Assembly: GCA_947591505.1 (NCBI GenBank)
Contig: CANQDM010000002.1
Coordinates: 1 to 60,682 of the forward strand
Direction: 5' to 3'
DNA from: an uncultured Bacilli bacterium
GTDB taxonomy: Bacteria > Bacillota_I > Bacilli_A > RF39 > UBA660
Length of the DNA stretch: 60,682 nt
In this document: positions 69-50,794 of the stretch, piece by piece
Layout of the letters: every line of letters begins with the position of its first letter
Position numbering within the stretch: position 1 is the first letter of the stretch
Notes under the pieces: generated by a model
What the model was told of the DNA's origin: nothing
Database searches by the model: none
The model's input: the letters and a program-made list of their open reading frames with translations, nothing else
Made by a program: the position numbers and the translations under genes

Positions 69-76
69 CCCCCCCC
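69..76. repeat. C8/G8 homopolymer tract (TA-C8-GG) 70 nt beyond the recombinase stop codon
   Basis: Read directly: atatattaCCCCCCCCggtattataa; near-identical TA-C8-AG at 50769..50780. Confidence 0.9.
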
Positions 77-146
77 GGTATTATAAATAGGCCACGAGAT
101 TACTTTCTTTGCTTAATCTTATAAAAATAATAGAAAGGTTAAGAGT

Positions 147-2138
147 TTATGAAGCATATAAATTCCATTTAATTTTAATAGGTCTTTCAGATGTTTCTTT
201 ATTTAGCTTACCAATTTCAATTTTTGAAATAAAAGCATCCAACACAACTTTATTTAATTCTTTTATATCTTTATATTGTTCAAATAATTTTTCTTTATCT
301 AATTGTTTTTCTTTATCAATCATTAAATTATTTATTTCTTCATTTATATCAATTAATCTATCCTCTAATTGACTTATTTGCAAACTATTACTTTCTTTGA
401 TAATATTAAATTCTGAAATATCCAAAGTGCCATTCACTTTATCAGCATAAAGTTGAACTAATATATTTTTCTTGTTTTGAATATCCGATTCAATTTTTGA
501 TTTTTGTTTTTCAAGATTTTTTATATCATTTTCAATATTTGAATAAATATTTTGCAAATAATATTCCTTATTCAATTTGGATAAATTATAATAATTATTA
601 ATTTTATCTTGAATACAATTTAAAACATAACTTTTTAATTCTTCTAAAGCAATAGAATCTCTATTATCACAAATATGTCCATTAGCTGGTGTATTACCTC
701 TACATATCAAATACTCTCTTTTGCCATTTTTTACATTTGAATTATTTTTATAAAATGGTTTTCCACAACAAGAGCAATAAAGTTTTTTTGAAAACAAAGG
801 TAATTCCCCATTTTTTTGTCCTCTAGTTTTAGTGTTTTGTTGAAACAAAGCATTAACAGTATTAAATGTTTCTAAATCTAAGTTGGCTTCATGACAATGT
901 GGAACAATTATCCATTCAGATCTAGGTTTTGGAATAGGCTTTTTATTTTTAAAACTAGTTCTTTCAGTTCTACCTTGAACAAGAGATCCAATTTGAGTTT
1001 CATCAGTAACAATATTCTTTATCATTTGAGAAGTCCACTTTTGTCTATGTGGAATAATTAATATATCACCTTTTGATATTTTATTTGTTTTCAAATTACT
1101 TTCTTCTTTAATTTCTTCTACGGTAACATAAAATTTCTTTGCAATAGATTTTAATGTTTCACCTTCTTCAACTTCATATCTGATGCATTTAATATGTTCT
1201 CTTCTTCTTACCTTTATTCCTTTTGCATCTTTATAGTCAGCAGGTGTCAAAATTCTTTTTGCCATTAAAACATTAATTACTGTTTTCATACTTTTGCCAT
1301 GAGATAGCATTCCTGCCATTAGTTGAATTACTGGTCTAACTTCTAAATCTGGAATAAGGTGATGTTTGTCTTTTGGATCAATTATATAGCCATATGGAGC
1401 AAAACTTCCTACAAATTCGCCATTCTTCATCATTGAATTAAGTGTTGCTCTTGTATTCTTTGATGTATCTTCAACATACCATTCATTTACAAGTCCATTT
1501 ATTTGTCTTGATTTCTTATTTTCTGCTACGGCTGTGTCTGAATTGTCAACTAATCCTAAAAATCTAACATTCCACTCTGGAAAACATTTGTGCAAATATT
1601 TCTCTACCATTTCCATTGAACGAGTAAATCTTGATTGACTTTTACAAAGAACTATTTCAGTATTGCCAACTTCAGCAAACCGAATTGATTTTAACCATTC
1701 TGGTCTATTATCATCTACTCCACTAATATCTTCTTCACAAAATATTCCAACAACTAACCAATCTCTTTTTTCACACTCATCTAATAAATAAAGTAACTGA
1801 TTTTTAATACTACCAGATACATCACCATTTTCTAAATCTCCATCTTCAACTGATAGTCTTATATAAAGAATTACTCTAAATTTTTCACCTGGTTTAACAA
1901 CTTTTCTTACAATATGTTGTGGTTTCTTAAAGCAATTAGGATCATCCTTTTTTGTAATTCCTAAGAGTTGTTTTACATTAGCTGAAACATATCTTAATTC
2001 ACTTTCATTTAGAAGTTGTTTAATTCGTTTTAATTGTACTTTTTCATTTGTGTTTTCTTCTAATTCTTCTTTATTTGCATTTTTAGTAATATTATTATAA
2101 CTAGTATATTCACCATCCTTTATTACATTTAATATCAC
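147..2138 (-). CDS. large serine recombinase (candidate ICE integrase) with an internal LysM-like insert
   Basis: Resolvase catalytic-Ser motif VILYIRLSVEDGD (Ser96); Cys-rich zinc ribbon CSCCGKPF...ICRGN...HICDN; long C-terminal coiled coil; GTG start with AAGGAGA 8 nt upstream. Confidence 0.9.
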   Translation of the reverse strand: MILNVIKDGEYTSYNNITKNANKEELEENTNEKVQLKRIKQLLNESELRYVSANVKQLLGITKKDDPNCFKKPQHIVRKVVKPGEKFRVILYIRLSVEDGDLENGDVSGSIKNQLLYLLDECEKRDWLVVGIFCEEDISGVDDNRPEWLKSIRFAEVGNTEIVLCKSQSRFTRSMEMVEKYLHKCFPEWNVRFLGLVDNSDTAVAENKKSRQINGLVNEWYVEDTSKNTRATLNSMMKNGEFVGSFAPYGYIIDPKDKHHLIPDLEVRPVIQLMAGMLSHGKSMKTVINVLMAKRILTPADYKDAKGIKVRRREHIKCIRYEVEEGETLKSIAKKFYVTVEEIKEESNLKTNKISKGDILIIPHRQKWTSQMIKNIVTDETQIGSLVQGRTERTSFKNKKPIPKPRSEWIIVPHCHEANLDLETFNTVNALFQQNTKTRGQKNGELPLFSKKLYCSCCGKPFYKNNSNVKNGKREYLICRGNTPANGHICDNRDSIALEELKSYVLNCIQDKINNYYNLSKLNKEYYLQNIYSNIENDIKNLEKQKSKIESDIQNKKNILVQLYADKVNGTLDISEFNIIKESNSLQISQLEDRLIDINEEINNLMIDKEKQLDKEKLFEQYKDIKELNKVVLDAFISKIEIGKLNKETSERPIKIKWNLYAS

Positions 2139-2218
2139 TTATTTACTCTCCTTATAGTTATTTAAAAACTATATGCTCAATAAACAAATGATATATGTAT
2201 AATAATATCCTACTTGCA

Positions 2219-2422
2219 TTATACCACACCTTTTTTTAATTTGCAGTGGTTATTTGCATTTTTTCCATTTTCTATATAACTTGCAGGATTATGCTCTAAT
2301 TCAATAATGACATATGCCAATTTTTTATTTATTAAATCACCTATCTCTTCTTCTGATAACATAGGATCAATTTCTTCAGTTAATTTCCATTTATATTTTT
2401 TTATATTGATTTCTTTATTCAC
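2219..2422 (-). CDS. hypothetical small protein (67 aa)
   Basis: ORF tiling in the co-directional operon; no recognisable motif. Confidence 0.4.
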   Translation of the reverse strand: MNKEINIKKYKWKLTEEIDPMLSEEEIGDLINKKLAYVIIELEHNPASYIENGKNANNHCKLKKGVV

Positions 2423-2445
2423 ACATACCCCCTTTAACTATTATA

Positions 2446-3039
2446 CTAATATTTCATTTGATTAATTTGTTTACCAACTAAAACCACTTGATAACCTTTA
2501 TGGCTCTGATTACAAGTGATTAAAGTTATGTACCTTTCTTTATCAGTTATTATTACACTAGCTTTTCCTGTTTTTTCTATATCATATTTATCAAATATCT
2601 CGTATTCGTATTTTATACCATTATAATAAATATAAACCTTGTCATTGATATTAACTTTGACAAGGTTTTTAAAAAATGCAATTTTACTATTTCCTGAATG
2701 TGCATACAAAATAAAATTACCATTTGTATCTGGATATTTGCTAATATTATCAACACTTATTGCGTATTTAATAGAAGCAAAATTTTTAGTATTATCAACT
2801 ACACCTCTTTTTAAATTAATTGTTGGAATTTCTAATATTGCTGTATAATTTATATCTTTAGCATTTGATTTTTTAGGCTTTTCATTATCACTTTTATTAT
2901 TATTAATTACTGTTGTTTCAGTAATATAATTATTAACTTCCATATTTTCTCGTATTTCTAAAATAAATTTAGTAAAGAAGTATAAAAATATAAAAGTTAA
3001 ATTAACTATTAATATTATTATAGATATTTTTTTAATCAT
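2446..3039 (-). CDS. sortase-family transpeptidase
   Basis: N-terminal TM helix, catalytic His context ILYAHSG and TLxTC motif ITLITCN. Confidence 0.8.
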   Translation of the reverse strand: MIKKISIIILIVNLTFIFLYFFTKFILEIRENMEVNNYITETTVINNNKSDNEKPKKSNAKDINYTAILEIPTINLKRGVVDNTKNFASIKYAISVDNISKYPDTNGNFILYAHSGNSKIAFFKNLVKVNINDKVYIYYNGIKYEYEIFDKYDIEKTGKASVIITDKERYITLITCNQSHKGYQVVLVGKQINQMKY

Positions 3040-5318
3040 AAGACATTCTCCTTCGTATTTTCATAAATCATAATTTGAGTAGTATATTTTTTATCATTTC
3101 TTGATACCACAAAACTATAATTTCTTTTATCAAATTTTTCTATATTTTCTATTATGTTATCTGGTAAATACATATCTAATTCAATTAAATATACATTTTT
3201 ATTTATTGTTATAATCTTTGCTTTCATACCTAGCAATACTTCTTGTATAAACTTATAAACAATATCATTTGGTATTCTAATATTTTCATTTCTTATATTT
3301 CTACTTTCTTGATGAACAGCTCTTTCAAAACCTTTTTGAATACTATTTTTTTCAACTGCCATTTTAGTATTTTCTTTATTTTCTACTACCTTCATTAAAG
3401 TTTCAACAGTATAGTAATTTTCTGTTAGCCTTTTTAAAATTTTAGTTTCTCTTTGCAAAATAGGATAATTTTTAAACTGCGGATAAATATCACTATATAA
3501 ATATGTATCTCTAAAAATTGGATTACCGAAAGTAGGGAAAATAATTGTTTTATATTTTAAACCTATTATTTCATTTGCTGTTAATAATTCTTTACCCATT
3601 AATGATTTAGTTTGATTCGCTCCAATTTTAAATGGATCTGTACTCATACTCATTGAATTTGTTTCTATTGTTGATTTTCCCAATTTCTTCGCAATTACTT
3701 CGGCTGTTTCAACCGTATTAGTTTTTAAATAAACTAACGCACAGTTATCTTGAATGATGTTAGCTATTTCTTTACCATATACTTGATTCAACTGACTAAA
3801 TGATTGAATAAAAAAATAAAATCTCATACCTCTACTTCTAGCAACAGATACTACTGTTTCTATTGCATCTAATGGAGGACAATTAGCAAACTCATCAAGT
3901 ATCCAATCAACTTTTACAGGAAGCATACCTTTATTTTCTTCTAAATTAGCAAATTTAGTTAAGTCTTTAATTAGCATACCAACTATAATTGTAACTAATT
4001 GAAAGTATGCCCTATCTTCATCTGGAACAATAATGTATAAAGCTGTTGGTTTCTTTCCAATATTTGTAAAATTAAATTCACTGACACTAGTAATATTTTC
4101 AACATTTAAGTCATCAAAGATAGACATTTTTTCGCCAAATACTGCTGTAATTGATTTATAAGTGTTTTCTGCAGATGACAAAATTGATGTTAAATAATCT
4201 TTTGATAAACTTCCATAAGGTCTTGAATTTAAATTTCTTTGTAAAAAAGTATGATTATCTTTAATTAATGAAGATGTTTGAAATTTTTTAACACTTGAAA
4301 TATTTATTTTAGATTCATTTATTAATCCTTCTTTATAATCTTCTAAAAAAATGCCGACAATTCCTACGAACAACTGCTTAGAACTGTTTAGCCAGAACGG
4401 GTCCTTGGACTCTTTTTCTGTAAAAATTAAATTTGCTAAAGATATAACTAATCTATTTGTTTCAGCTTGATGCTTTGAACTTAAATTTTGATTATTCTTA
4501 ATTTCTTCTAACAATTCATCATTATTTTTATTTTCTAAAAATTCTTTTAAATCATTACCACTATAGTTATCTATAAAATCAATATCATACATTTTTTTAC
4601 TTCTGATTCCTTTTGAAATTAATTCTTGATTATTTTTAATTACTTCAACAATGTAATTCTCTAAATTATATTTATTTTTTACTTGTTGCATATATTTATC
4701 AGAAGAAAACATTCTATTAACTGAAACTTTATTTACCTTTAAAAAATGAGTTAAAAAGAACATCATCTTTTTATTATATAGACAATGTTCTTTCCACTCA
4801 TCAATAATTGGTTGCATAATATTTATTTTATTTGATTGTGCAGGATTTCTAAAATCTATTGTAACGACATCATATCCATTATCTTTAAAAATTTTACCAG
4901 TTGCATTAAATAATTCTGCTTTTGGATCAGTTAAGACCACTGAATGTTTTTCTTTTGCGGTTGCAAAATGAATACTCATATTTAGAGAAACTGTTGCAGA
5001 TTTACCAGATCCAGTAGAGCCTACTAATAAAAAGTGTGGTGATTTATTATCAAAATAAACATTTTCAAATTTACCACCAATTTTTTCATACCATACTGGG
5101 AATCCAACTTTATTAATATTATTAATTTTTTCTTTATCAAAATTGCCTTTTATTTCTTTTAAATCAGCAAATTTACTGCTTCCATGCTCATTTTTATTAG
5201 ATAATTTTCTCTTTGCAATTCGTGGCTCAACTAATAAAAGAAAAATAATTAAACTAATAACTATTATTAATAAAATAAACATTGGATATGACATTGGATC
5301 AAATTTTATACTATCCAT
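3036..5318 (-). CDS. type IV coupling protein (VirD4/TraG family)
   Basis: N-terminal TM segment, Walker A VGSTGSGKS, Walker B-like WILDEF; 760 aa; 4-nt overlap with downstream gene. Confidence 0.85.
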   Translation of the reverse strand: MDSIKFDPMSYPMFILLIIVISLIIFLLLVEPRIAKRKLSNKNEHGSSKFADLKEIKGNFDKEKINNINKVGFPVWYEKIGGKFENVYFDNKSPHFLLVGSTGSGKSATVSLNMSIHFATAKEKHSVVLTDPKAELFNATGKIFKDNGYDVVTIDFRNPAQSNKINIMQPIIDEWKEHCLYNKKMMFFLTHFLKVNKVSVNRMFSSDKYMQQVKNKYNLENYIVEVIKNNQELISKGIRSKKMYDIDFIDNYSGNDLKEFLENKNNDELLEEIKNNQNLSSKHQAETNRLVISLANLIFTEKESKDPFWLNSSKQLFVGIVGIFLEDYKEGLINESKINISSVKKFQTSSLIKDNHTFLQRNLNSRPYGSLSKDYLTSILSSAENTYKSITAVFGEKMSIFDDLNVENITSVSEFNFTNIGKKPTALYIIVPDEDRAYFQLVTIIVGMLIKDLTKFANLEENKGMLPVKVDWILDEFANCPPLDAIETVVSVARSRGMRFYFFIQSFSQLNQVYGKEIANIIQDNCALVYLKTNTVETAEVIAKKLGKSTIETNSMSMSTDPFKIGANQTKSLMGKELLTANEIIGLKYKTIIFPTFGNPIFRDTYLYSDIYPQFKNYPILQRETKILKRLTENYYTVETLMKVVENKENTKMAVEKNSIQKGFERAVHQESRNIRNENIRIPNDIVYKFIQEVLLGMKAKIITINKNVYLIELDMYLPDNIIENIEKFDKRNYSFVVSRNDKKYTTQIMIYENTKENVL

Positions 5319-5716
5319 TATATATCAATTGTTTCTTCCTTTTCAGAATTAAAATAACTTGGTATTAAAATTCCTGAAAATTCCATTGCTCTTATTAATG
5401 TACAATCTTTTGGTAAATGTAAATCTCTTTCAATTTTAAATCCATATGGTAATTTTATACTTTCTAATTCAGACAGCATTACATACCCAAGTTCAGCCCA
5501 ATTATTATCTCCTAAATGACAATATCCAAACATTTTATAATCACCATTGTCTAATTTGTTACCTTCTGTAATAAGCCATGTACCAACACCCATAGGATTA
5601 AAATACTTTACTATAACTTTAGAATCTCCCAATAATCCATCTTGACTACCTAGTGGATATTTTTTAAATTTTTCTTCTAATTCCTTTGTCATAAGTTTCA
5701 TATTATTTAACTCCAT
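5318..5716 (-). CDS. conserved conjugative-element protein, DUF2958-like
   Basis: Pattern KYFNPMGVGTWLITEG...GYCHLGD..AELGYVMLSELE...ERDLH resembles DUF2958; judged from memory of the family only. Confidence 0.45.
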   Translation of the reverse strand: MELNNMKLMTKELEEKFKKYPLGSQDGLLGDSKVIVKYFNPMGVGTWLITEGNKLDNGDYKMFGYCHLGDNNWAELGYVMLSELESIKLPYGFKIERDLHLPKDCTLIRAMEFSGILIPSYFNSEKEETIDI

Positions 5717-5717
5717 A

Positions 5718-5969
5718 TTACAAAAATTTTTCTACTTCAGGTGCTTCTCTCAAACCTTTTTCAATTTCTATTTTATCTTCAATTGCTTCTAATTTTTTAA
5801 CAAAACTTTTATTAAAAATTTTGGTTTGATTATAAAATATACATTTTTTGATTTCTTCTAGTCTTTCATCACTAACCCATTCAATAGGAATATCCATAAC
5901 TTCTTTCACTAAAATAGTAGCAAACATATCGAAATATTTTTCCATTGCTGCTCGTTTCGATTCTAACAT
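5718..5969 (-). CDS. hypothetical protein (83 aa)
   Basis: Tightly tiled minus-strand ORF. Confidence 0.45.
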   Translation of the reverse strand: MLESKRAAMEKYFDMFATILVKEVMDIPIEWVSDERLEEIKKCIFYNQTKIFNKSFVKKLEAIEDKIEIEKGLREAPEVEKFL

Positions 5970-5985
5970 TCTTACCTCTTTCTAT

Positions 5986-6348
5986 TTATTCTAATTCTTT
6001 ATCAGCTTCTATTTCATGATTTTCAACATAATCGGCTATATATGTCCTTAAACAACTTTTAATATTCTCTACTGTATCACAAGCATATCTACATTCTTTA
6101 TTATTATCTTGATTTATGGTTAAAATTTCATTTTTAGGATTATAACTTATACTAATATTAATTGGCTCATTTAAAGCTTTACTATATAAATTATTAAAAC
6201 TCGTTTCACAATAATCACTTGAATCTAATACGATTTCTTCATTATTATATTTCTCTCTAACCTTGTCTATTGCTTCATCAATATTGTTAGCATCAATACT
6301 AATAACTCTTCTAAGAATTTCTTCAATTTCTATATCATATTTTTTCAT
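5986..6348 (-). CDS. hypothetical; resembles DpnD/PcfM-type small conjugative-element proteins
   Basis: N-terminus KKYDIEIEEILRRVISIDANNIDEAIDKVREKYNNEEIVLDSSDY matches the remembered DpnD/PcfM pattern. Confidence 0.4.
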   Translation of the reverse strand: MKKYDIEIEEILRRVISIDANNIDEAIDKVREKYNNEEIVLDSSDYCETSFNNLYSKALNEPINISISYNPKNEILTINQDNNKECRYACDTVENIKSCLRTYIADYVENHEIEADKELE

Positions 6349-6359
6349 AAGTTTATTAT

Positions 6360-6950
6360 CTACATCCCAATTTCATAATCATCACTATCTGATTCATAAC
6401 TACTATTATAATTGTCTTCAAAAGAGTTCTTATTTTGTTCAGCATTGTTTTTAATACGATTTAATTCTCTTGATTCTTGATTTTCAAGATGATTTGAAAT
6501 TTCCATATATTCAGCTTGGATATCTTTATCATACATAGCTTTGTTAAATTCATTACTAATATCTTGATTAAAGAAACGGAATCCTTTTTTTTCTAATCTT
6601 TGTTTTTCTTGAATGTATGAATAAGTATGGTTTATAGCAATAACTTCTGGTATTCTCAAATCTTTAGGATTTAAATTATTATCCATACAAATAAGAGCTT
6701 GATAAAATAATTGCTCATTATCTTTTCTTAATTCATTTAATTGACTATACATAATACTTAAAAATTGTCTGTTTACTGACTCAGATATTGCTTTTTCTAT
6801 AACTTGTCCTAACTCTTTTTCAAAATGATTAGCAGGTACAATAGTTGGTTGATTTGTTTCTGGATTAGGATATTTATAGGTTATATCTGATAATGTTTTT
6901 GCTAACTCTTTTGGTTTTTGTTGTAATAATTCATCATATACAGTTCTCAT
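6360..6950 (-). CDS. hypothetical protein with acidic C-terminus
   Basis: 196-aa ORF ending SYESDSDDYEIGM; tiled in operon. Confidence 0.45.
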   Translation of the reverse strand: MRTVYDELLQQKPKELAKTLSDITYKYPNPETNQPTIVPANHFEKELGQVIEKAISESVNRQFLSIMYSQLNELRKDNEQLFYQALICMDNNLNPKDLRIPEVIAINHTYSYIQEKQRLEKKGFRFFNQDISNEFNKAMYDKDIQAEYMEISNHLENQESRELNRIKNNAEQNKNSFEDNYNSSYESDSDDYEIGM

Positions 6951-8197: not shown

Positions 8198-8215
8198 TAT
8201 ATCATCTCCTTTAAA

Positions 8216-43700: not shown

Positions 43701-46700
43701 CTAATCTTTTTAAGCCATTTTCATTTTCTTTTAAATATTCATAATCCATAACTAAATCCAATTTTTCTTGATCAATTAATAAATCTCTATAATTTGGATT
43801 AGCAATTATAGATCTTAATGATGATAATGCTAAACTTAACCCTTCTTTACCAAATTTACCACTGTATGGGTTATCAGTCATAATGGTATCTACATTATTA
43901 TTTATAAAATTAATTAAAGTAGTCTCTAAAAAGTCAATTTGTTTTGATATAACAGAAATATCACCATCTAATGATATACTTTTTATGTATGGAATATATT
44001 CACTTAGTTGAGGATTATTTAAAAACACTTTGCTTTGCATTCCATATTTATATCTTATCGCATCCATTAAAATATATATGTCTTGTTCTTCAAAATTCAC
44101 TTCGATATTTTTAGATAATTTATTTTCCAATTCATAAAAATATTCTGTATCACTATAAAATTCAGATGATTCATTGTGCCAAAGCCAAGTTTCTTGTTCA
44201 AAAGTTCTAATCTCTTTTAAAATTCTTTCTTTATAAGCAGAATATTTTTTCAATCCAAAGTTGTAAGTAATATCTTCTTTAATATGTGTAGCATCACTTA
44301 AAACACTATCATACAATTTTTTATAATAATTTTCTGCCTTTATTGTATCAATTTTTATTGGTAAACCTTGGTTAAATTTAATTAACTCTTCACCTTTTAA
44401 AGAATAATAAAATCCTAAACTATACCTACTACTATCTTTAACAAAATCAAGAGAAAATGATGGATCATATATAACTACTGGTTCTGTTCCATAACCATTT
44501 GGATAAATTAAATTATAAGCATGATTTTCACCATTTCTAATACCTGATGCAAATTCAGAATCAATTCCTAAAAATTTAAATAAATTATGAGCAAGTCCAG
44601 CTTTTTCTGAACAAAATGCACAAGAATTAGCAATAATATCTCTTATAGAAACTTTTCCATCTTCTAAATGACTTGCATAACAATCAAGTCTTTTAAATCC
44701 TACATCATTTGAAGGTAAATAGTTATTTATAATTTCAAATATTTTAGTAAATAAAATTGGCTCATTATAATCATTTCCACTTTTTAAACTATTAATAAGT
44801 TCAATATAAGGTGATATATCATCATATACTAAGTCTGGACAGTCATGATTCATAATTTTATCAGCAGGTTTAAAATGAATAACCTCTGAAATGAAATTTT
44901 GAAAACTATCAGTATAATTTTGTCCCACAGTTTTTTCTTCACTAATACTTTCAAGTTCACTTAATCTTTCTTTAACAAATTCTTCAATTTCAGCAGGAGT
45001 CTTAAGATCAAAAATTCTTTCTTTTATTTTTTCTTTTAAAGGAATAGTATCCTCTGCATTTTCTGATGAATTATTTGAAGAAGGTGAATTTTCTGATTCA
45101 AGGGATGAATTTAAAATTTCTTCTATTCCAGACAATTTACTAGTTAATTCTTCACTTGTTACAGATTCACCATGAATAAAAGCCGAATCTAATTTTGCAT
45201 AATAACTAAATTCATTTGTTGAGCCATGCATTTCATTCTTAATATTTAATACAAATTCCACATCTATTTTATTAATCAACTCATAAATGTTTTGAATTTT
45301 TTGCATATTTGTACTTAGAACAAATGAATCGCTTACTGTAGTCCCAATTACTGAATTTAATATATTAAATAATTCACTATCATAATTATGAGGATAAAAA
45401 GCTATAGAGTATGGAATATCTCTTGATAAACTTTTTTGAAAAGAAAGGTCAAAATCATAACCATCCAATGCACTTAAAATACTTGGTAAATATTTAGAAA
45501 ATGTTGGAGTAATCTTGAAAGAAATATAAGGTGAATGTTCACCATATTCACCAATATGCCCTCCACAACTTGCATGTGTTTCAATACCATTTTGATAAGA
45601 TGTTAAAAGTAATGCTTCAAGTGCTTTATTTCCTTCAGCAAAATCATGAGCTGCTTTACTATAATCATCAATATCGGTTATATCAATTGGCTTACCATTA
45701 TTCATTCCCTTACTATCTGTATATATTTTTACATCTTTAAGAATTCCTCTTAATCTAGCTTTTGCTTTATCTTTCATATATTTAGAAATTTGCATTTCAA
45801 TAGTTCCATGTCTTAAGAAACTGATTTCGCTATCTGTTAATACTTCTCCATTTTTAGATTTTTGAACAACATCATAATATGCTTGTAATTCGCTACGATT
45901 TATTTCTAATACTTGAGCAAATTGTTGTGCTTTTGTCGTTCCATTCAATTTATTATACATATTATTAGCGATTGCATAACTTGCTCTTACAGTTGTTTTA
46001 GTACCTCCAAACGAACCAAAAGTTATACCAGATACAAATCCACCTAAAAATGCTTGAAAGGCTTGATTACTAAAATCTTTCATAGTTTTTATTAAAGCAG
46101 TATTTTCATCATCACCGTTTAAAATATAATTATTAATAGATTGAGTATAATTGCTTAAATCTTTTGCAATAAAGATATCAGCAACATAGTTTAAAATTTC
46201 TGTAGTAAATTCTTCTTCACCTTCAACAAATCCTTGACTTAAAGCTGATGCTCCCACATAAAAACTTTTAGTAACTAAATTAGCAATTGTTGGATTACTA
46301 ATATTGCTAGCAATTTTATTAGTTAATTTTAAAACATTTTCACTTAGTTTTTCTTCTAAATTCAATAAATGACTTACTGAATAGCTCTCCATTGCTGTTT
46401 CAACAACAGAAGATGTAAATGCTAAAGCAACAGCTTCACCATCTGATAGTCCTCTATCTAAAGCATCATTTAATGTAGAAACATAAGCTCTTGAACCCAT
46501 TGTTGCTGCACTTATTAAAGGTGTTGCTACTCCTCCAGTTGCTACACTAATTCCAATTAATTCAAGACTATCTATCATACTCATTCCTGTACTATACAAG
46601 AAAGATAAAGTTTCACTATTCTTAGCAATATCAGAAGCAACTTGTGTTCTCCATATATCACCAGAACTATATACATCTACTCTTCTTATTTTTTGACCAG

Positions 46701-48765
46701 TAAAATATGAATTTAGAGAATAATACATTGCTCCAATTCCTTCAAATGGAGTTATTAAAACAGATCCAATAGATGCTAATATTGGATGTTCACTAGCATA
46801 TTCTTGATCTTCCAATGTTTTATTGGCTAACCATCTTTTATCAACTTCACTTGATAATACATCATTTAAATAATTATATGCACCATCTATTCCTTCTGTA
46901 TTATAAATATAATTAAATATTAGTTTTTCTTCTTCGCTAACAAATGGTAGCCATTGTAGATAATGGTTAAATAAATCATCATTTGCAGTTACAGGAAATA
47001 AAACTCCATCAACAGATAAATAACCATTAGAAAGGTTTCCACCTTCACCATTAAGCATACAACTAATTAAATTTACAATTTCTTCTTTACTAGTTACTCT
47101 AATAGTTGGTATAGCATCATAATCAGATGGAGATATTATTTTATTTTTATTTGCTTCTTGTAATGCTTTTATTGTTTCTAGAGCTTCACTATTAAAAGTA
47201 TTATTAGTATCAAAATCATCTGCATGCAAATATGAATCAACATTATTAATGTAATAATCAACTTCTTCTTTTATTGCATCACATATGTTTTGATATGTAC
47301 TAACTTTGACCTCTAATTGCTTTATTTCTGAATTTATGTTTTCTAAATTTTCATTTCTATTATTTACTAAATCACCATATTTATCTGATATTGAATAAAA
47401 GTATTGTTCTTGAGCTTCTGTTTCTGTCCAACGATAAATTGTTTTTTCATTTTTTGAAAATAAAGGTTTAATAGTTTCTGCAGTTAAATTGGCTCGTAAT
47501 TCTGCAAGCAATTCGCTATCTTTATACATTTCTTCAAAGGTTAGCGGTGTATATGAAACATCATCTACATAACCAGACATATAAGGATCTTCATATTTAT
47601 AATTGATATTACCATTTTCATCAGTATATTCCCATGCTACAACTGTAGAATTTAAAATGTCATCTAAATTTTCGCCCATTTTAAGTCTAGTTATAAAATT
47701 CATTATAGCATCTATTTCATAATTTTCTGCTTCTAATTTTTGCTTATATAATTCATTTAATCTATTAGTATCATCATTTATTGCTTGCTCTAAATCTGTT
47801 ATATTATTATATTCTAAACCATATGCTTGCAAATATGAAGCATATATCATATCTACTCTTCTAGTATTATCTTCATCATTTTCTATTTGTTCAAATAATT
47901 CTTCTTGACTTATTTTTCCGTTTAATACTTGCTCTATATCCATCTCATTTAAGCCAAAAGATTCTAATAACATTCTATATGTATCAACATCTATTTCTGT
48001 AACAACTTCTTGTCCCCAGGAATTGATGGTAGTTATAGTAACTTTTGTAGCATCTTCAACATTATTATTACTAGCAGAACTATCAAACGAATTTTCAGGC
48101 ATATCAAAAGATACACCAGCACCACTATTGTTATTACCTTGATTAGCATTTTGATTGCTAGTCATATTAACATTAGTAGAAGATGATGTTTGATTAGATG
48201 TAGCATTATTATTTTTAGCATTAAATGGTGTTTTATTATCTTGTGGCTTAACATTCATATCATTTTGTGCTTTTGATTCATTATTACTTGATAAGCTATT
48301 TCCATTCATAGTAGAATTGGAATTTTGATTTGTAGAATTAATATCAGGTGCTTTTGAAGAATCAACATTAGTTGAATTATTTATATTACTACTATCATTT
48401 AAATTAGAATTATTACTAGTTTGATTAACTTGTTGTTGAGATGCATCATTAACTTGAGAAGATCCAGAAGTTGTAGGACCAGAAGAAGCACTTGTATTTG
48501 TGGTTGATACTGAATCAGCTGTTTTGCTTTCATCCACAGTAGTCGAAAAATCCATAGTTTCTGTTTGACTACTCGATCTTCCTCCATATGTATTTGCAGT
48601 TCCAGCATTATAATTTTGGGGTGCTTCGCTTTGTGTAGAAGTTAAACTAGCTTTTTCACTTTTATTTGCATCAGAATATAACTTATCTAATTTTACATCT
48701 TCAAAATCTACTGATGCATTAACGCCATCTATTTGTTTTGCACCAGATACACCAAAATTACTCAT
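37750..48765 (-). CDS. giant (3,671 aa) multidomain putative secreted effector/toxin
   Basis: Uninterrupted 11-kb ORF. S/N/T/Q-rich N-terminal ~200 aa. Transglutaminase-like Cys1385/His1415/Asp1434. HEFGH at 2374-2378 (41632..41646). C-terminal papain-like Cys3464 (GCAYMA), His3625 (GGHAMLIT), SSWSG. Confidence 0.8.
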   Translation of the reverse strand: MSNFGVSGAKQIDGVNASVDFEDVKLDKLYSDANKSEKASLTSTQSEAPQNYNAGTANTYGGRSSSQTETMDFSTTVDESKTADSVSTTNTSASSGPTTSGSSQVNDASQQQVNQTSNNSNLNDSSNINNSTNVDSSKAPDINSTNQNSNSTMNGNSLSSNNESKAQNDMNVKPQDNKTPFNAKNNNATSNQTSSSTNVNMTSNQNANQGNNNSGAGVSFDMPENSFDSSASNNNVEDATKVTITTINSWGQEVVTEIDVDTYRMLLESFGLNEMDIEQVLNGKISQEELFEQIENDEDNTRRVDMIYASYLQAYGLEYNNITDLEQAINDDTNRLNELYKQKLEAENYEIDAIMNFITRLKMGENLDDILNSTVVAWEYTDENGNINYKYEDPYMSGYVDDVSYTPLTFEEMYKDSELLAELRANLTAETIKPLFSKNEKTIYRWTETEAQEQYFYSISDKYGDLVNNRNENLENINSEIKQLEVKVSTYQNICDAIKEEVDYYINNVDSYLHADDFDTNNTFNSEALETIKALQEANKNKIISPSDYDAIPTIRVTSKEEIVNLISCMLNGEGGNLSNGYLSVDGVLFPVTANDDLFNHYLQWLPFVSEEEKLIFNYIYNTEGIDGAYNYLNDVLSSEVDKRWLANKTLEDQEYASEHPILASIGSVLITPFEGIGAMYYSLNSYFTGQKIRRVDVYSSGDIWRTQVASDIAKNSETLSFLYSTGMSMIDSLELIGISVATGGVATPLISAATMGSRAYVSTLNDALDRGLSDGEAVALAFTSSVVETAMESYSVSHLLNLEEKLSENVLKLTNKIASNISNPTIANLVTKSFYVGASALSQGFVEGEEEFTTEILNYVADIFIAKDLSNYTQSINNYILNGDDENTALIKTMKDFSNQAFQAFLGGFVSGITFGSFGGTKTTVRASYAIANNMYNKLNGTTKAQQFAQVLEINRSELQAYYDVVQKSKNGEVLTDSEISFLRHGTIEMQISKYMKDKAKARLRGILKDVKIYTDSKGMNNGKPIDITDIDDYSKAAHDFAEGNKALEALLLTSYQNGIETHASCGGHIGEYGEHSPYISFKITPTFSKYLPSILSALDGYDFDLSFQKSLSRDIPYSIAFYPHNYDSELFNILNSVIGTTVSDSFVLSTNMQKIQNIYELINKIDVEFVLNIKNEMHGSTNEFSYYAKLDSAFIHGESVTSEELTSKLSGIEEILNSSLESENSPSSNNSSENAEDTIPLKEKIKERIFDLKTPAEIEEFVKERLSELESISEEKTVGQNYTDSFQNFISEVIHFKPADKIMNHDCPDLVYDDISPYIELINSLKSGNDYNEPILFTKIFEIINNYLPSNDVGFKRLDCYASHLEDGKVSIRDIIANSCAFCSEKAGLAHNLFKFLGIDSEFASGIRNGENHAYNLIYPNGYGTEPVVIYDPSFSLDFVKDSSRYSLGFYYSLKGEELIKFNQGLPIKIDTIKAENYYKKLYDSVLSDATHIKEDITYNFGLKKYSAYKERILKEIRTFEQETWLWHNESSEFYSDTEYFYELENKLSKNIEVNFEEQDIYILMDAIRYKYGMQSKVFLNNPQLSEYIPYIKSISLDGDISVISKQIDFLETTLINFINNNVDTIMTDNPYSGKFGKEGLSLALSSLRSIIANPNYRDLLIDQEKLDLVMDYEYLKENENGLKRLERKYSDLIEKIWENSLDSSIQDKNFSVLFSNIFGPLNYQADNLINRQDQHSTSLITSNLIATYGSTTRRIGFIYPSDSHIISASAWDLNSNVFGKGIKNKEKGTILVTPAALEQEGMKITLENGESPYFSTQYNEVLVDSKPCGILYIGYGEKDLNSDYNKAILMAKKYNLPFYEIDMLDYEDTLTANDKYYIAYHSIYSYLGLSIDSFLGTDDNSVKLFTLIIDIVNKNKELIADKFLELKRNNKLSKENIQLVLEENLDSITKSILDSIKSGNLETNSYIRRINLLEQELNEAIEDLNKINESGSLGTYGIDIEYHDDLKFVSDDILKSFANFSKNISIFPNDMENVQEIVIPLSLSDLQRKYSTRIYFDIKTREFYDYDAMRNLILERIAEENSLEYYTKLENKIFAAETMIKYPDSFEFSISEDEFFKINTDVFTFLLDPRTILFKLSSGMNVYVVDNFESLEKVTNDVNLFNEEYFLYDITSKKIYKPEDLEEVFKQRKEQYIIDEIEMANDLASQNESYEIKLESLSDIEKIVDKLDNSTLSYVVLSEHADYKIFIPTTLEELETIKKLYSSDDKILFYTKKIGLQEYEETKKYFREGLYDSVASKTFSNLMSAVLEKAKLNGKSDVATIIANIEKIKTLNKNFGVKFTLAEEGYTAKNEPIFVGYKAYDNFNEMRVFFHEFGHSMFDAIFKAKIPRNYLSVLSKVQNHISKNSDLISRFFKNFYFAYGSVAEQTEQIFLNNYEKILTEQVAALDKQTLQDILFDSTDGHATFDDNALENYRKEVFENEARKIKSNIKSNLLNQQTVCYPDISGLFHDLFLGSDKLVLVNQFGEIERLAPDTTIYQHEEDYYKNVAAISLSLNEQVAAYTTLKFMDAIYGTQNINVLENLLGKDYIDFMENIWNGFVNFFETGNISDIDVLTDEDELIFSPYIKELLDGNILAPFSDTIEGIDTIVLSSKNISGNPNILHNNYNFDQIVFNINAINCFANKKIVIKVPNKIFLELFEARIEDINNKDYITLCYDGDFEQKMFSINEIDKLFERIDECSISPIISDVIDNSIKIPKLANAYYMEMSPSSVEHLDDSERIINVRNRVFKGGLAFGKNNPIAMATNENSIYRVTGMNQVTDILNSGFVRPKEGKLKGGHINEVFWTQGSDKTYYYDKRPVLEVSVDKLADNQMGAISINDLQAIWIFDEQQGKYVNRLKELKRLIEINNSKIELNANIITTYLVSNKFDDANILRILEESQLLENRLISTINTNGEIDNLIKEIKNITEETLPQGYKDLTELKERIIDKLIETNSLLKLSNQQFYDLIEDDLIMLRKVIGHEKLTYFITKNLADLPNKFASLFDGLSNDELLKIFDNEEITNYFDSLSDEQFLEIAKAFIKYNSNVIVISNNFRNKLFKIDPKLLSNFFSTVFFDLGKTLEADIDSGTIFIEEFLKNYGNDDIMINNPQLAAKVLQCLPFGFHGEYDSQKEVLRNFDKKAKQNLCNKIISNALIEIPTDATIRKDGYFDIKYTIDGIEYIKKSMKSYGKLDLLTELVSQYDAILSDKLKIVSITEDVIKNTLSINDNTKDGLNVITLEINGEIEKHLVRFRYGSTDLTRLARSKQINSVKIISIEPFIQSTFDLKVDDKYSVYKLTYTIDNQEFEQYFPTIGDTLYLDNFITLNDLYNATNFKIEPINLDSLPKSQFNINKYQNSNEIFKDNAYGGNQSDVREIVVSALSGEQLSEINRQKSEILIKIIKNYYPDAQETDLKNIAKAYEECGCAYMAIANSFITYMNSIENGSNIFLEKMGFNLSVTDGITKSPNLEAVALDFYLHIHKVVENNSTIDELLKNSHGMSAMIYETVTNSYFASKGINVELNHNMFDLEDYKKDIVINSLNNKGFWILGSSGFDLESLDNNLTVGDDAALTHIKIEGKTLKNIGGHAMLITDMFENGDLMVSSWSGKYRFIPNSHTTRISIYSIIFNIINGG

Positions 48766-48805
48766 ACCTTCACCACCTTTTACTCTGTTTTATTTTTATT
48801 CAATT

Positions 48806-49048
48806 TTAATATGATTTTCTTAATGTACTATATCTACTATTAGAAATGGATGTTGCAGAACTTGATAAAGATTTTTTTATGTTATTAATTGCATCACCAT
48901 TATATGTTTTATCATTTATTAAAATTGTTCTATTCATAGTATTTTCTAATTGTTGAACACTTTGATTTAAATTATTTATTTGATTAGTTATTAAATATAA
49001 TCTATACGAAATATTTGCATATTTTTTCTTTTTTACTGCATCATCCAT
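48806..49048 (-). CDS. small helical protein (effector-associated, candidate chaperone/adaptor)
   Basis: ATG at 49048 with GGTGA 8 nt upstream, right after the previous stop; the call rests on position. Confidence 0.45.
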   Translation of the reverse strand: MDDAVKKKKYANISYRLYLITNQINNLNQSVQQLENTMNRTILINDKTYNGDAINNIKKSLSSSATSISNSRYSTLRKSY

Positions 49049-49049
49049 T

Positions 49050-49346
49050 TTAAATATCACCATCAAATCTATTTATTGTTTCTATACTTACTCTATCATA
49101 TCTAGCAATTGCATTACTTAATATATTCACATATTTAGCTCTTTTAGTTGAAATTTTAGAAACGCTAGTTTTACTATCGATTATTTTTTCTAAAAAATCA
49201 GCCGTATTAGATGTATTATAATTTCTTAAACATAATTGCATTTTTTCAAATATTTTACCTAATACCTGCTTTTCTTCTTCTGAATAATAATTAATTTGTT
49301 CAATATTTTTTTCTAATAACGATTTATTTAAAATATTCTCATTCAT
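49050..49346 (-). CDS. small helical protein (98 aa, effector-associated)
   Basis: Tiled ORF between the WXG-like genes and the giant gene. Confidence 0.5.
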   Translation of the reverse strand: MNENILNKSLLEKNIEQINYYSEEEKQVLGKIFEKMQLCLRNYNTSNTADFLEKIIDSKTSVSKISTKRAKYVNILSNAIARYDRVSIETINRFDGDI

Positions 49347-49349
49347 ATA

Positions 49350-49925
49350 CTATTCTCCTAAATAAAAGTCAAAATCATTTATTTTAATTGCTTCTAAAGC
49401 ATTTATTTTGTTTTTTACTTCTTTTTCTATATTTTCTATTTTATTAAATAAATTAACTACTTGGGTTTTAATCGTAGATAGTTTATTTCTTACACCAACA
49501 ATTACATCTTTTTGAAGTGATATGCTATATATTTCAGAATAATAAAAACTTCTATCAATGTAATTAAAACTATTAATTATATTTGATGCTTTATTATAAC
49601 AATCATCTATTTGACCAAGTAAGGAATTTTTATTATTCAAATTACATTTTATTTTGTTTCCAAATTCATGGTATTTAGTATATACTAATTCAAATATTTC
49701 TTTTTTAGATTTTAGTGCTTGCAAAAACAAATCAGATTCTTGCTTTTCCAAATAAATCTCATTATCAAATTTAACAGAATTACCATCTTGCCAATTAATA
49801 CAACTATCTTTTAATTGATTAAATAGATTTAATTTAATATTTTCGTATTCATCAATTAAAGCGGTTAATCCCATTATGTTATTGCTTAATTCTCCCATAT
49901 CAACATCTATTATAATTACCACCAT
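49350..49925 (-). CDS. WXG-motif-containing helical protein (191 aa; start uncertain)
   Basis: INWQDGNSVKF resembles the W-x-G turn of WXG100 proteins; no good RBS at any of the first three ATGs. Confidence 0.45.
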   Translation of the reverse strand: MVVIIIDVDMGELSNNIMGLTALIDEYENIKLNLFNQLKDSCINWQDGNSVKFDNEIYLEKQESDLFLQALKSKKEIFELVYTKYHEFGNKIKCNLNNKNSLLGQIDDCYNKASNIINSFNYIDRSFYYSEIYSISLQKDVIVGVRNKLSTIKTQVVNLFNKIENIEKEVKNKINALEAIKINDFDFYLGE

Positions 49926-49991
49926 TTTCTAAATATAAAATAACATTTAACATGTTATTTTATATTTAGAAAAAGATATATATCTTTTTCT
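49925..49991 (-). terminator. two overlapping perfect hairpins (22-bp and 11-bp stems) after the WXG-like gene
   Basis: 49925-49946 pairs with 49952-49973; 49968-49978 pairs with 49981-49991; the two share 49968-49973. Confidence 0.5.
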
Positions 49992-49998
49992 AAACAAA

Positions 49999-50682
49999 CT
50001 ATTCACCAGTAGTATTATTGAAAGCATCTGAGATACCTGAAGATACTTCTTGGTATTTTTGAACAGCTTTATTAATTTGACCTTGTAATGATTCTTCTCC
50101 ATCAGTTAAATATTTAAATATTTTATGAAGTTCACCACTTACAGTTACAAAGCATTGTTTTAATGCTTCACCTTGTCCATGACCAATGAAAGCACTTTCA
50201 GCATCTAGATTATTTGCTAAAGTTTCAAGATCAGATTTGATTCCTTCTTCAACTTCACCTAATCTACTTGCAATTTGACTTGCTTGTCCTTCTTCAATTG
50301 TTACATTACCAGCATTTTCAGGTTGAATATCAGAAACATTTAAAGTTAGATCTACAGTATCGATTGTTGCCAAGCTAGGAATTTCTCCTCCTGTATTTTC
50401 AGCCCAATTCTTTCCTGCACTTTCAACTGCTCCTCTATAAGCATCAAATGCTTGTGTAATATTTTCTCCAGATGCTTTTACTGTTTGAGCAAATCCATTG
50501 AAGAAATCTACTGCTTCTGGAGCATACCATACTGTAGACATAGGAACAATAATATCGCTATGTAATCTTTCTACGATATTTTGTCCAGCTTGTTGTGCAG
50601 TAGAATTAATTACATCTCTTAGTGCATTTACTTGTTCACAATTATATCCAGATGTTTCTCCAGATCCACCAAATAAACCCAT
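49999..50682 (-). CDS. WXG100-superfamily / LXG-like T7SS substrate candidate (227 aa)
   Basis: ATG at 50682 with GGGAGGAG 6 nt upstream. Helical, A/Q/E/G-rich and GC-richer than its surroundings. VWYAPEAVDFF lies at the position of the WXG turn. First gene after the promoter. Confidence 0.55.
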   Translation of the reverse strand: MGLFGGSGETSGYNCEQVNALRDVINSTAQQAGQNIVERLHSDIIVPMSTVWYAPEAVDFFNGFAQTVKASGENITQAFDAYRGAVESAGKNWAENTGGEIPSLATIDTVDLTLNVSDIQPENAGNVTIEEGQASQIASRLGEVEEGIKSDLETLANNLDAESAFIGHGQGEALKQCFVTVSGELHKIFKYLTDGEESLQGQINKAVQKYQEVSSGISDAFNNTTGE

Positions 50683-50764
50683 AATTTCACTCCTCCCATT
50701 ATTAAAAAGTTTATTTTCCGATAAACAAAACATTACTACGAATACCTTATCTATCTATAAGAAA

Positions 50765-50794
50765 ATTATACCCCCCCCAGAAACCAATTGTCAA
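50765..50794 (-). promoter_or_regulatory. sigma-A-type promoter TTGACA-N18-TATAAT with a G8 tract in the spacer
   Basis: Minus strand reads TTGACAattggtttctGGGGGGGGTATAAT, about 80 nt upstream of ATG 50682. Confidence 0.6.

What the first reader, a model, noticed from the sequence alone, without database searches (positions are those of the whole stretch)
69..50778. Two near-identical TA-C8 tracts may be the ICE junctions, so integration would build a hybrid promoter for the effector operon
Seen directly: attaCCCCCCCCgg at 65..78, 70 nt past the stop of the serine recombinase gene where an element end is expected. Also tataCCCCCCCCag at 50767..50780. TACCCCCCCC[G/A]G is shared, and these are the only two C8 runs in the window. 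Inference: suppose these are attL/attR of a ~50.7-kb element running from the recombinase to the WXG-like gene. The empty site would then read on the minus strand TTGACAattggtttctG8TAATATatacttatc...AAAGGAttttgttATG. That is a good promoter for the gene starting at 28. After integration the chromosomal -35 plus G8 would be fused to the element-borne TATAAT. The ICE-borne effector operon would then be transcribed only when inserted next to essC. In the circular form the joint would have no -35. Caveat: serine recombinases need only a 2-bp identical core, so a shared 10-12 bp is neither required nor proof.
Basis: inference. Interest (0 to 1): 0.75.

Follow-up and report, generated by a model that had tools for sequence, protein, structure and literature searches.

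The report
ICE ends at G tracts, not both C8s
The C8 run next to the recombinase gene looks like a real end of a conjugative element that inserts into poly-G promoters, but its partner end is most likely a C6 run at 60.6 kb, so the second C8 run is an ordinary promoter inside the element and not a hybrid made by integration.

Summary
Both C8 runs exist (69..76 and 50771..50778) and are the only C7+ runs in the window.

**Left tract.** It is best read as a recombination junction. Six relatives of the serine recombinase (69-78% identity, different uncultured gut Bacilli) carry a G7-G10 run shortly after the stop codon. Each run is preceded by a conserved arm (YKTGG-N15) and followed by unrelated DNA and a different gene.

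**Right tract (50771..50778).** It has no such arm on either side.

**Better partner.** A C6 run at 60606..60611 carries the exact inverted arm (CGTGG-N15-tract) in the right register.
- Joining its outer flank to the left flank rebuilds a promoter, TTGACT-cgc-G8-taata-TATACT. This aligns end to end with native G-tract promoters in related genomes.
- A C8 allele of that joint is the only one tested that shares exactly 77 nt with both ends of the contig, as expected for a k=77 assembly branch.

**Conclusion.** The element is about 60.5 kb and contains essC and the effector operon. The TTGACA-N18(G8)-TATAAT promoter lies inside it and is not a hybrid. Integration does appear to split a native G8 promoter, but a different one from the one proposed. 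No empty site or circular joint was seen directly.

The parts
1..28 (-). First 9 codons (MNGEVENTN) of the chromosomal target gene downstream of the insertion. The rest lies off the contig.
   Evidence: Sequence read directly. In all six relatives a gene with the same orientation as the recombinase starts 6-60 nt after the tract.
29..68 (-). B' arm: the chromosomal half of the split promoter (-10 TATACT at 63..58) plus the 5' UTR and RBS of the target gene.
   Evidence: It aligns with the downstream halves of native G8 promoters in L036 and L042, G8-tataYTATAAT-aatCTTATA. The promoter scan picks TATACT.
69..76 (-). Site L: G8 (C8 on the + strand), the recombinase-proximal junction tract (P arm - G8 - B').
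   Evidence: G7-G10 occupies the same place after the recombinase gene in L010, L011, L012, L013, L014 and L015.
77..96 (-). P arm of the element: CGTGG (96..92) plus 15 nt, up to the tract.
   Evidence: Same register as TTGGG-N15 in L010-L013 and, within 1 nt, in L014 and L015.
147..2138 (-). Large serine recombinase, 663 aa, with DUF4368 at the C-terminus and a LysM insertion. It is transcribed towards site L, with no terminator in between.
   Evidence: Pfam. No terminator-like site in 1..400. Relatives at 58-78% identity.
2446..32630 (-). Conjugation and maintenance backbone: sortase, VirD4/TraG-type coupling protein, DNA methylase, AbiEii, primase, two SSBs, M23 peptidase, VirB4-like ATPase, SpaA/thioester adhesin.
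   Evidence: Pfam. TraG-sortase-recombinase synteny in L010-L013, L015 and L016.
33010..36676 (-). Cargo: NUDIX-domain protein, radical SAM protein, LysR-type regulator.
   Evidence: Pfam. Contiguous with the backbone on one side and the effector genes on the other in independent contigs.
36877..50682 (-). Putative T7SS substrate operon: 227-aa weak WXG100-like protein; 191, 98 and 86 (80) aa proteins; a 3671-aa protein with no family match; then 212 and 81 aa proteins.
   Evidence: Same gene order in L001-L003.
50765..50794 (-). Site M: the internal promoter TTGACA-attggtttct-G8-TATAAT (tract 50771..50778).
   Evidence: 12/12 promoter match. No P or P' arm motif. Intact member of the native promoter family. 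G8 in the window and in L001-L005.
50821..52530 (+). IS30-family insertion sequence with a 17-bp target duplication, ATTTGTGTACAAATTTG (50804..50820 and 52531..52547).
   Evidence: NCBIfam transpos_IS30, 105.9 bits. Absent from L001, L002, L004 and L005, where the duplicated 17-mer occurs once.
52633..57469 (-). EssC (1525 aa) and an overlapping 88-aa gene in the position of EsaB/YukD. Both lie inside the element as delimited here.
   Evidence: TIGR03928 T7_EssCb_Firm, 932 bits against a cut-off of 778. The 88-aa protein has no family hit.
59275..60291 (-). MerR-family regulator (338 aa) with its own operator-type promoter. It is the innermost gene at the right end.
   Evidence: Pfam. Homologues in relatives are chromosomal, which counts against the delimitation.
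60586..60605 (+). P' arm: CGTGG (60586..60590) plus 15 nt up to the tract on the + strand. This is the inverted copy of the P arm at 96..77.
   Evidence: CGTGG occurs only 3 times on the + strand in 60.7 kb. The only other tract with an inverted arm is L014 8411..8419, G9-N15-CCCAA.
60606..60611 (-). Site R: G6 (C6 on the + strand), the proposed recombinase-distal junction tract (B - G6 - P').
   Evidence: Also G6 in an independent contig that runs through it, L040.
60612..60682 (-). B arm: the chromosomal flank, with the -35 TTGACT (60620..60615) 3 nt from the tract.
   Evidence: Same geometry as the native promoters TTGACTctc-G8 (L036) and TTGATTctc-G8 (L042). L040 continues into a 134-aa gene and a HemW-like gene, syntenic with lepA-hemW-134aa in L042.

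Best explanation
The window is one whole contig. It holds a ~60.5-kb integrative conjugative element bounded by site L (G8, 76..69 on the minus strand) and site R (G6, 60611..60606).

Proposed mechanism (inferred, not shown):
- The element's large serine recombinase belongs, by domain content, to the DUF4368 multi-targeting type.
- It would recognise an attP of the form CGTGG-N15-G(~6)-N15-CCACG and cross over inside the G tract.
- Its target would be a native promoter of a clade-specific class in which a G8-9 run fills the spacer between -35 and -10. Here that would be TTGACT-cgc-G8-taata-TATACT, upstream of the gene starting at 28.
- Integration separates the -35 (now at 60.6 kb) from the -10 and the gene (now at the left end).
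- The target gene then sits directly downstream of the co-oriented recombinase gene, behind a weak TTTATA -35 supplied by the element.

The C8 at 50771..50778 is not a junction. It is the spacer of an intact promoter of the same general class, inside the element, that drives the putative T7SS substrate operon downstream of an element-borne essC.
For: (1) Recombinase relatives at 69-78% identity in six different MAGs all have G7-G10 50-210 nt after the stop. The run is preceded by TTGGG/CTGGG-N14-16 and followed by unrelated sequence and six different co-oriented genes.
(2) L014 has a 3.8-kb mini-element with G9 at both ends. The distal tract is followed by N15-CCCAA, the inverse of the proximal arm.
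(3) In the window the inverse arm occurs only at site R, and it is the exact reverse complement (CGTGG/CCACG) in the same register. CGTGG occurs 3 times per strand-window. The motif background is 0.0025 per position. None of 5 native tracts, nor site M, has the motif.
(4) B arm of site R + G8 + B' arm of site L aligns along its whole length with native promoters in L036 and L042, with spacing 3+8+5.
(5) The window is a complete contig of 60682 bp. Among the alleles tested, only '1..68 + C8 + 60612..' shares exactly 77 nt with both contig ends.
(6) L040 reads through site R into a 134-aa gene and a HemW-like gene. The same lepA-hemW-134aa block is chromosomal in a sister MAG, and homology to L040 stops about 10 nt after the 134-aa gene's stop.
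Against: - No empty site, circular joint or second insertion site of this same element was observed. Four collection scans were negative.
- The MerR-like gene just inside site R has 71-88% identical homologues in plainly chromosomal contexts in relatives: after dnaJ, or between metK and a UDG gene. The right-hand 10-28 kb could therefore be captured or resident chromosomal DNA.
- Only two P'-type arms are known (site R and L014).
- The k=77 argument assumes a de Bruijn assembler with that k, which I cannot verify.
- In the sister MAG the gene after the 134-aa gene is not recognisably the gene at 28, and no G tract lies there.
- No relaxase was identified in the ORFs scanned.
Confidence: 0.68

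Rival explanations
1. The element runs 69..50778. The two C8 tracts are attL and attR. The empty site is TTGACAattggtttct-G8-TAATAT. Integration fuses a chromosomal -35 to an element-borne TATAAT, so the effector operon is expressed only when inserted next to essC.
For: These are the two longest tracts, in the same orientation, with shared TA...RG flanks. In L001, L002, L004 and L005, SNP density against the window is near zero left of the tract and rises within 54-190 nt to its right. The effector operon and the backbone are contiguous in independent contigs.
Against: - No P' arm inside the tract and no native-type B arm outside it.
- Both sides look like one intact promoter of the native family.
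- The implied attB has the -35 10 nt from the tract, unlike all native examples (2-3 nt).
- The SNP breakpoints differ between strains (52559, 52611, 52693) and none lies at the tract.
- The contig is not broken at this tract but ends exactly 77 nt outside sites L and R; this model predicts 76 nt at the left and nothing at the right.
- It leaves the perfect inverted arm at 60586..60605 unexplained.
Confidence: 0.08
2. Composite or tandem island. Sites L and R bound the whole insertion, but it consists of the conjugative element proper plus a separate, older island (MerR, regulators, essC, effectors, perhaps the NUDIX/rSAM/LysR genes). The two are joined at an internal junction that is now decayed. 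That junction might be site M or the 32.7-33.0 kb gap.
For: MerR homologues are chromosomal elsewhere. The exact 227-aa (WXG-like) protein was mostly found in samples other than those holding the exact backbone proteins. There is a 380-nt gap at 32631..33009. Site M keeps a G8.
Against: The matching P and P' arms are at the outermost sites. Site M and the C5 run at 32639..32643 show no arm motif. The NUDIX gene, the backbone and the effector 3' end are linked in every contig recovered. The difference in sample sets may only reflect 3-8x coverage and exact-match look-ups.
Confidence: 0.17
3. The tracts have nothing to do with recombination. They are only phase-variable or structural promoter elements common in this clade, and the element's true ends lie elsewhere.
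For: Native G8-9 promoter tracts occur about once per 10-15 kb in chromosomal loci of relatives, upstream of membrane or secreted protein genes.
Against: Sequence conservation among six related elements stops exactly at the tract that follows the recombinase gene. The arm motif is found only at tracts next to a recombinase gene or at their proposed partners. L014 has the recombinase bracketed by two tracts with inverted arms.
Confidence: 0.04

Closest known systems
DUF4368-containing multi-targeting large serine recombinases (the TndX/TnpX-like clade; Durrant et al. 2022, PMC10083194)
   Same: Resolvase + Recombinase + zinc ribbon + DUF4368 architecture. Related copies sit upstream of different genes in different genomes, which implies recognition of a motif rather than one unique gene. 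The paper states that DUF4368 marks the multi-targeting clade, that the clade includes TndX-like enzymes, and that some members have complex target motifs.
   Different: The example target site the paper describes has a TT dinucleotide core in AT-rich sequence. From memory, TndX and TnpX use a GA core. Here the inferred core lies in a G6-G10 homopolymer flanked by YKTGG-N15 arms, and the targets are promoters of one class. The enzyme also carries a LysM insertion. The paper's multi-targeting definition (one 90% cluster, more than 3 target gene clusters) was not tested here.
Serine-recombinase conjugative transposons and ICEs of Firmicutes (Tn5397, Tn4451-type; named from memory)
   Same: The recombinase gene lies at one extreme end of the element. 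There is a VirD4/VirB4-type Gram-positive conjugation module and no tRNA target.
   Different: Much larger cargo, including essC and a putative T7SS substrate operon. A defined promoter-type target. No relaxase recognised in the ORFs scanned.
Homopolymer tracts in promoter spacers that give phase variation (Neisseria porA/opc, Mycoplasma vlp; named from memory)
   Same: A G8-9 run lies between -35 and -10 upstream of genes for membrane or secreted proteins.
   Different: No length variation was seen: G8 in six sequences at site M. Switching is therefore not shown. Use of such tracts as a recombinase crossover site is, to my knowledge, not part of those systems.
essC-linked variable effector modules of T7SSb (S. 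aureus essC1-4, Listeria; PMC5994694 and PMC10327511 seen, abstracts only)
   Same: EssC is followed directly by a WXG-like gene, small helper-sized genes, a very large protein and small downstream genes. Divergence is concentrated at the essC 3' end and the next gene.
   Different: Here the module appears to lie on a mobile element. No EsaA, EssA or EssB gene is present in the window. The giant protein has no LXG or any other family match.

Membership tests
Large serine recombinase, DUF4368 multi-targeting clade | N-terminal resolvase catalytic domain, Recombinase domain and zinc ribbon | tested here: met
   PF00239 63.7 bits, PF07508 35.3 bits, PF13408 36.8 bits, all above their cut-offs.
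Large serine recombinase, DUF4368 multi-targeting clade | C-terminal DUF4368 | tested here: met
   PF14287 26.1 bits against a cut-off of 25, residues 618-657. This is marginal.
Large serine recombinase, DUF4368 multi-targeting clade | Closely related enzymes (90% cluster) inserted next to more than 3 unrelated target genes | tested here: inconclusive
   Six different flanking genes were found, but for enzymes only 69-78% identical to this one. No second site is known for this exact enzyme.
Serine-integrase att sites | attP with imperfect dyad symmetry around a short central core, about 40-50 bp | tested here: met
   CGTGG-N15-tract at site L and tract-N15-CCACG at site R. L014 has CTGGG-N14-G9 and G9-N15-CCCAA. 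The rebuilt attP is about 46 bp.
Serine-integrase att sites | Observed attB (empty site) and attP (circular joint) that recombine | not testable with these tools
   Flank and joint patterns are absent from the metagenome and viral collections. The only support is the rebuilt promoter and the contig-end geometry.
   Minus strand: G8-N15-GATAG where CCACG is expected. Identity over 25 nt to the left P arm is 9/25, against 14/25 for site R.
   The -35 would lie 10 nt from the tract. Native examples have 2-3 nt.
Integrative conjugative element | Coupling protein and VirB4-type ATPase | tested here: met
   T4SS-DNA_transf 184.5 bits. TraG P-loop, AAA_10 and DUF87 hits in the 825-aa protein.
Integrative conjugative element | Relaxase and oriT | tested here: inconclusive
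   No relaxase family was hit in about 38 ORFs scanned across the window, about 22 of them in the backbone. Many backbone ORFs have no Pfam match or were not scanned.
Type VIIb secretion system | EssC ATPase | tested here: met
   TIGR03928, 932.5 bits against a cut-off of 778.4.
Type VIIb secretion system | WXG100 substrate and the EsaA/EssA/EssB membrane components | tested here: not met
   The 227-aa protein hits WXG100 at only 18.1 bits (cut-off 44.85). No EsaA, EssA or EssB family hit was found in the ORFs scanned. The small ORFs at 57.5-58.5 kb (58, 63 and 66 aa) were not scanned by me, but their precomputed Pfam hits in L001 are HTH or none.
Phase-variable promoter | Homopolymer in the spacer plus length polymorphism between clones | tested here: not met
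   The tract is in the spacer, but it is G8 in the window and in L001-L005.

The most novel reading that the evidence does not exclude
A family of conjugative elements in uncultured low-GC gut Bacilli uses a serine recombinase whose crossover lies inside a homopolymeric G tract. It targets a clade-specific class of promoters (-35, 2-3 nt, G8-9, about 5 nt, -10) that drive membrane and secreted protein genes. Each insertion would uncouple such a gene from its -35. Tract length (attB G8, attP about G6, junctions G8 and G6) could set whether a site is recombination-competent. This member additionally carries its own essC with a cognate substrate operon, a portable specificity module for a type VII secretion system.
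Probability: 0.5. Interest if true: 0.65.

Novelty: new variant of a known kind. Interest (0 to 1): 0.5.

Why it matters
If the delimitation is right, three things follow.

1. It gives a defined, testable att pair (about 46-bp attP, G-tract core) for a DUF4368-type serine recombinase. Homopolymer cores are unusual for serine integrases, and they raise the question of how register is kept inside a repeat.
2. It shows an element family that lands specifically in one class of promoters and so rewires expression of surface or secreted protein genes.
3. It places essC and its substrates on a transferable element, which would let T7SS specificity move between strains.

For the finding as written, the practical point is negative. 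The effector promoter is most likely not built by integration, so effector expression should not depend on insertion next to essC.

Tried and rejected
- **Dyad scan.** A blind search for inverted similarity between the left end and 31-60.6 kb gave only AT-rich noise.
- **Motif searches.** TTGGGTATAA and the window's own P arm gave nothing above chance.
- **Recombinase look-ups.** Exact look-ups of the recombinase with a V or an M start found no record.
- **Sortase contigs.** Too short to reach the left junction.
- **MerR 347-aa look-up.** Gave a contig that starts at the gene.
- **157-aa backbone protein.** Only 4 homologues, all on short contigs, so right ends of related elements could not be reached.
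- **Collection scans.** Metagenome scans for the left flank and for the P' arm found 0 hits. A viral-collection scan for recombinase relatives and scans for the attB and attP joints found 0 hits.
- **Sister MAG.** It did not provide a recognisable empty site.
- **End near 32.7 kb.** Considered and rejected. The C5 run there belongs to the ribosome-binding region of the 157-aa gene and has no arms. NUDIX-to-backbone linkage is constant in every contig recovered.
- **Circular contig.** Rejected by inspection: the two contig ends share no sequence (one search prints both).
- **tRNA or RNA-gene target.** None found.

Full report
**Observation.**
They are the only runs of seven or more C or G in the window (0.18 expected; 0 of 100 shuffles reach the observed count). 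A shorter run in the same orientation, C6 at 60606..60611, was not reported.

**Gene map.**
Almost everything is on the minus strand.
- 147..2138 is a 663-aa large serine recombinase with Resolvase, Recombinase, zinc-ribbon and DUF4368 domains and an inserted LysM domain.
- 2.4-32.6 kb is a Gram-positive conjugation backbone: sortase, VirD4/TraG-type coupling protein, methylase, AbiEii, primase, two SSBs, M23 peptidase, VirB4-like ATPase, SpaA/thioester adhesin.
- Next come NUDIX, radical-SAM and LysR genes, then an operon running from a 227-aa weakly WXG100-like protein to a 3671-aa protein with no family match.
- Right of the second tract lie an IS30-family element, an 88-aa gene, a bona fide EssC (TIGR03928, 932 bits against a cut-off of 778), small HTH genes and a MerR-type regulator.
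- The window is a complete 60682-bp contig held by NCBI.

**The left tract is a conserved element end.**
A scan of one genome per species found relatives of the recombinase at 58-78% identity in uncultured Bacilli MAGs from rabbit and roe deer gut and in 'Clostridium sp. CAG:1219'. Most share the TraG-sortase-recombinase order. In six of them (69-78% identity) a G7-G10 run follows the stop codon by 50-210 nt on the recombinase strand. Up to the run the sequences share an arm (TTGGG or CTGGG, then 14-16 nt). After the run they are unrelated, and each leads into a different co-oriented gene. The 58% relative (L017) shows no tract in the 260 nt read after its stop, so its end was not located.

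**What the other end should look like.**
L014 has a 3.8-kb mini-element consisting of a 284-aa ORF and the recombinase, bracketed by two G9 runs. The distal run is followed by 15 nt and then CCCAA, the inverse of the proximal arm. The family attP is therefore YKTGG-N15-G(n)-N15-CCMMR, about 46-50 bp with dyad symmetry around the tract. That size and symmetry are typical of serine-integrase sites (general knowledge).

**Applying this to the window.**
- On the minus strand, site L reads CGTGG-cctatttataatacc-G8.
- The C6 run at 60606..60611 (site R) reads G6-tatgttgctaataaa-CCACG. That is the exact reverse complement of the site L arm, in the same register.
- CGTGG occurs only three times on that strand in the whole window.
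- In a census of all G6+ tracts in the window and nine loci, the arm motif lies proximal to all six recombinase-adjacent tracts. The inverse motif lies distal to only site R and the L014 distal tract. The background is 0.0025 per position.

**Native G-tract promoters and the rebuilt target.**
Chromosomal loci of relatives contain G8-9 runs inside promoters upstream of membrane or secreted protein genes:
- TTGACTctc-G8-tatacTATAAT (L036)
- TTGATTctc-G8-tatatTATAAT (L042)
- TTGACAct-G9-tgttaTATAAT (L035, twice)

. Such tracts are therefore common in this clade, about one per 10-15 kb of the chromosomal sequence examined. Joining the outer flank of site R to the outer flank of site L gives tctaTTGACTcgc-G8-taataTATACTtatcttataaaagtagaaagg...ATG. 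This aligns end to end with the L036 and L042 promoters and has the same 3+8+5 spacing. In the same alignment, site M has native-type sequence on both sides (TTGGTTtct-G8-...CTTATAG). It is an intact, diverged member of the promoter class and not a hybrid.

**Contig-end geometry.**
The contig ends 68 nt left of site L and 71 nt right of site R. I compared hypothetical empty alleles with the contig. Only '1..68 + C8 + 60612..' shares exactly 77 nt with both ends. C6, C7 and C9 versions give unequal values. Seventy-seven is a standard de Bruijn k. An edge bounded by two branching 77-mers is what an assembler produces when the sample also holds the empty allele. This step is inference, because the assembler and its settings are unknown to me.

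**The right flank is chromosome.**
L040, from another sample, reads through site R (also G6) into a 134-aa gene and the end of a HemW-like gene. In a sister MAG the block lepA-272aa-hemW-134aa is followed by other genes, and homology to L040 stops about 10 nt after the 134-aa gene's stop. That MAG does not show a recognisable empty site.

**Site M.**
It is a 12/12 TTGACA-18-TATAAT promoter. It lies just downstream of a hairpin followed by a T-run after the 88-aa gene, which I read by eye as a terminator; no scan was run on it. Four metagenome contigs lack the IS30 element and show the 17-bp duplicated target once. All five contigs keep G8. SNPs against the window are rare on the effector side and dense from 52559, 52611 or 52693 onward, depending on the strain. 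The change is near the tract but not at it, and not at a fixed point. I read this as ordinary mosaic recombination around the essC 3' end.

**Mechanism.**
- Shown: the anatomy, the conservation of the proximal arm and tract, and the inverted arm at site R.
- Inferred: the recombinase synapses attP (arms about 20 nt either side of a G tract of about 6) with a native G8 promoter and exchanges strands within the tract. This leaves G8 at L and G6 at R, which is consistent with central GG cores.
- Consequence: the gene at 28 loses its TTGACT. It is left behind a weak TTTATA-18-TATACT match and the unterminated recombinase gene.
No hybrid promoter for the effector operon is formed.

**Evidence against, and limits.**
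- No empty site, circle or second insertion of this element was seen.
- The MerR-like gene just inside site R has chromosomal homologues at 71-88% identity elsewhere, with different neighbours in each lineage. The right-hand part may be captured DNA or a separate island fused to the conjugative element. I give that variant 0.17.
- Apart from EssC, the T7SS core components EsaA, EssA and EssB were not found in the window.
- No relaxase was recognised in the ORFs scanned.

**Comparison with what is known.**
By domain content the enzyme falls in the DUF4368 clade. Durrant et al. describe this clade as multi-targeting and as including TndX-like enzymes, some with complex target motifs (PMC10083194). 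Literature searches found no report of a serine recombinase with a homopolymer core or a promoter-class target, but the library is incomplete. I rate this a new variant of a known kind. It is of moderate interest as a biological system, and the specific hybrid-promoter claim is not supported.

Noticed in passing
window 50804..52547: An IS30-family element (1710 bp, transposase at 51101..52297) is inserted 9 nt upstream of the -35 of the effector promoter. It has a 17-bp duplication of a near-palindromic target, ATTTGTGTACAAATTTG, which is far longer than the 2-3 bp usual for IS30. From memory, this resembles IS1630 of Mycoplasma, which duplicates inverted-repeat targets. It is absent from 4 of 5 related metagenome contigs.
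   Followed up: partly
window 147..2138, residues 321-363 of the recombinase: A LysM domain (35 bits against a cut-off of 20.9) sits inside the Recombinase domain of a DNA recombinase. Relatives have the same length, so the insertion is probably conserved. I have no explanation for it.
   Followed up: no
L035 3437..3445 and 9819..9827; L036 1276..1283; L042 8870..8877: A class of native promoters has G8-9 filling the spacer (-35, 2-3 nt, G run, about 5 nt, -10), upstream of genes whose products start with signal or membrane-anchor sequences. In L035 two copies share about 100 nt, including the 5' UTR. This is a candidate phase-variable promoter cassette in uncultured gut Bacilli.
   Followed up: partly
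L014 8411..12203: A 3.8-kb mini-element holds only a 284-aa ORF and the recombinase, bracketed by two G9 tracts with inverted arms. It may be a minimal mobilisable relative of the large element.
   Followed up: partly
window 59275..60368: The MerR-family gene has a conserved operator-type promoter, TTGACT-cttcccttaagggtag-ATGTAT. Only this gene and its promoter are shared with relatives (71-88% protein identity). The neighbours differ in every lineage: dnaJ, metK/UDG, or this element.
   Followed up: partly
window 37750..48765: A 3671-aa ORF has no Pfam or NCBIfam match at E<=0.01. L001 carries an extra ~100 nt here relative to the window, at about window 46402..46413, where the two alignment pieces also overlap by 12 nt.
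   Followed up: no
window 52559..53300: The 88-aa gene and the essC 3' end are 2-4% divergent between strains, while the adjacent effector genes are over 99.5% identical. The breakpoints differ between strains.
   Followed up: partly
L043, L044, L045 (contig ends): Three independent assemblies of the sister lineage all break 47 nt after the 134-aa gene. This is the same intergenic position where synteny with the window's lineage ends, which suggests a variable hotspot there too.
   Followed up: no
window 10341..11099 and 12211..12942: The backbone encodes a SUFU-domain protein (143 bits) and an AbiEii-type nucleotidyltransferase toxin. Neither was examined further.
   Followed up: no
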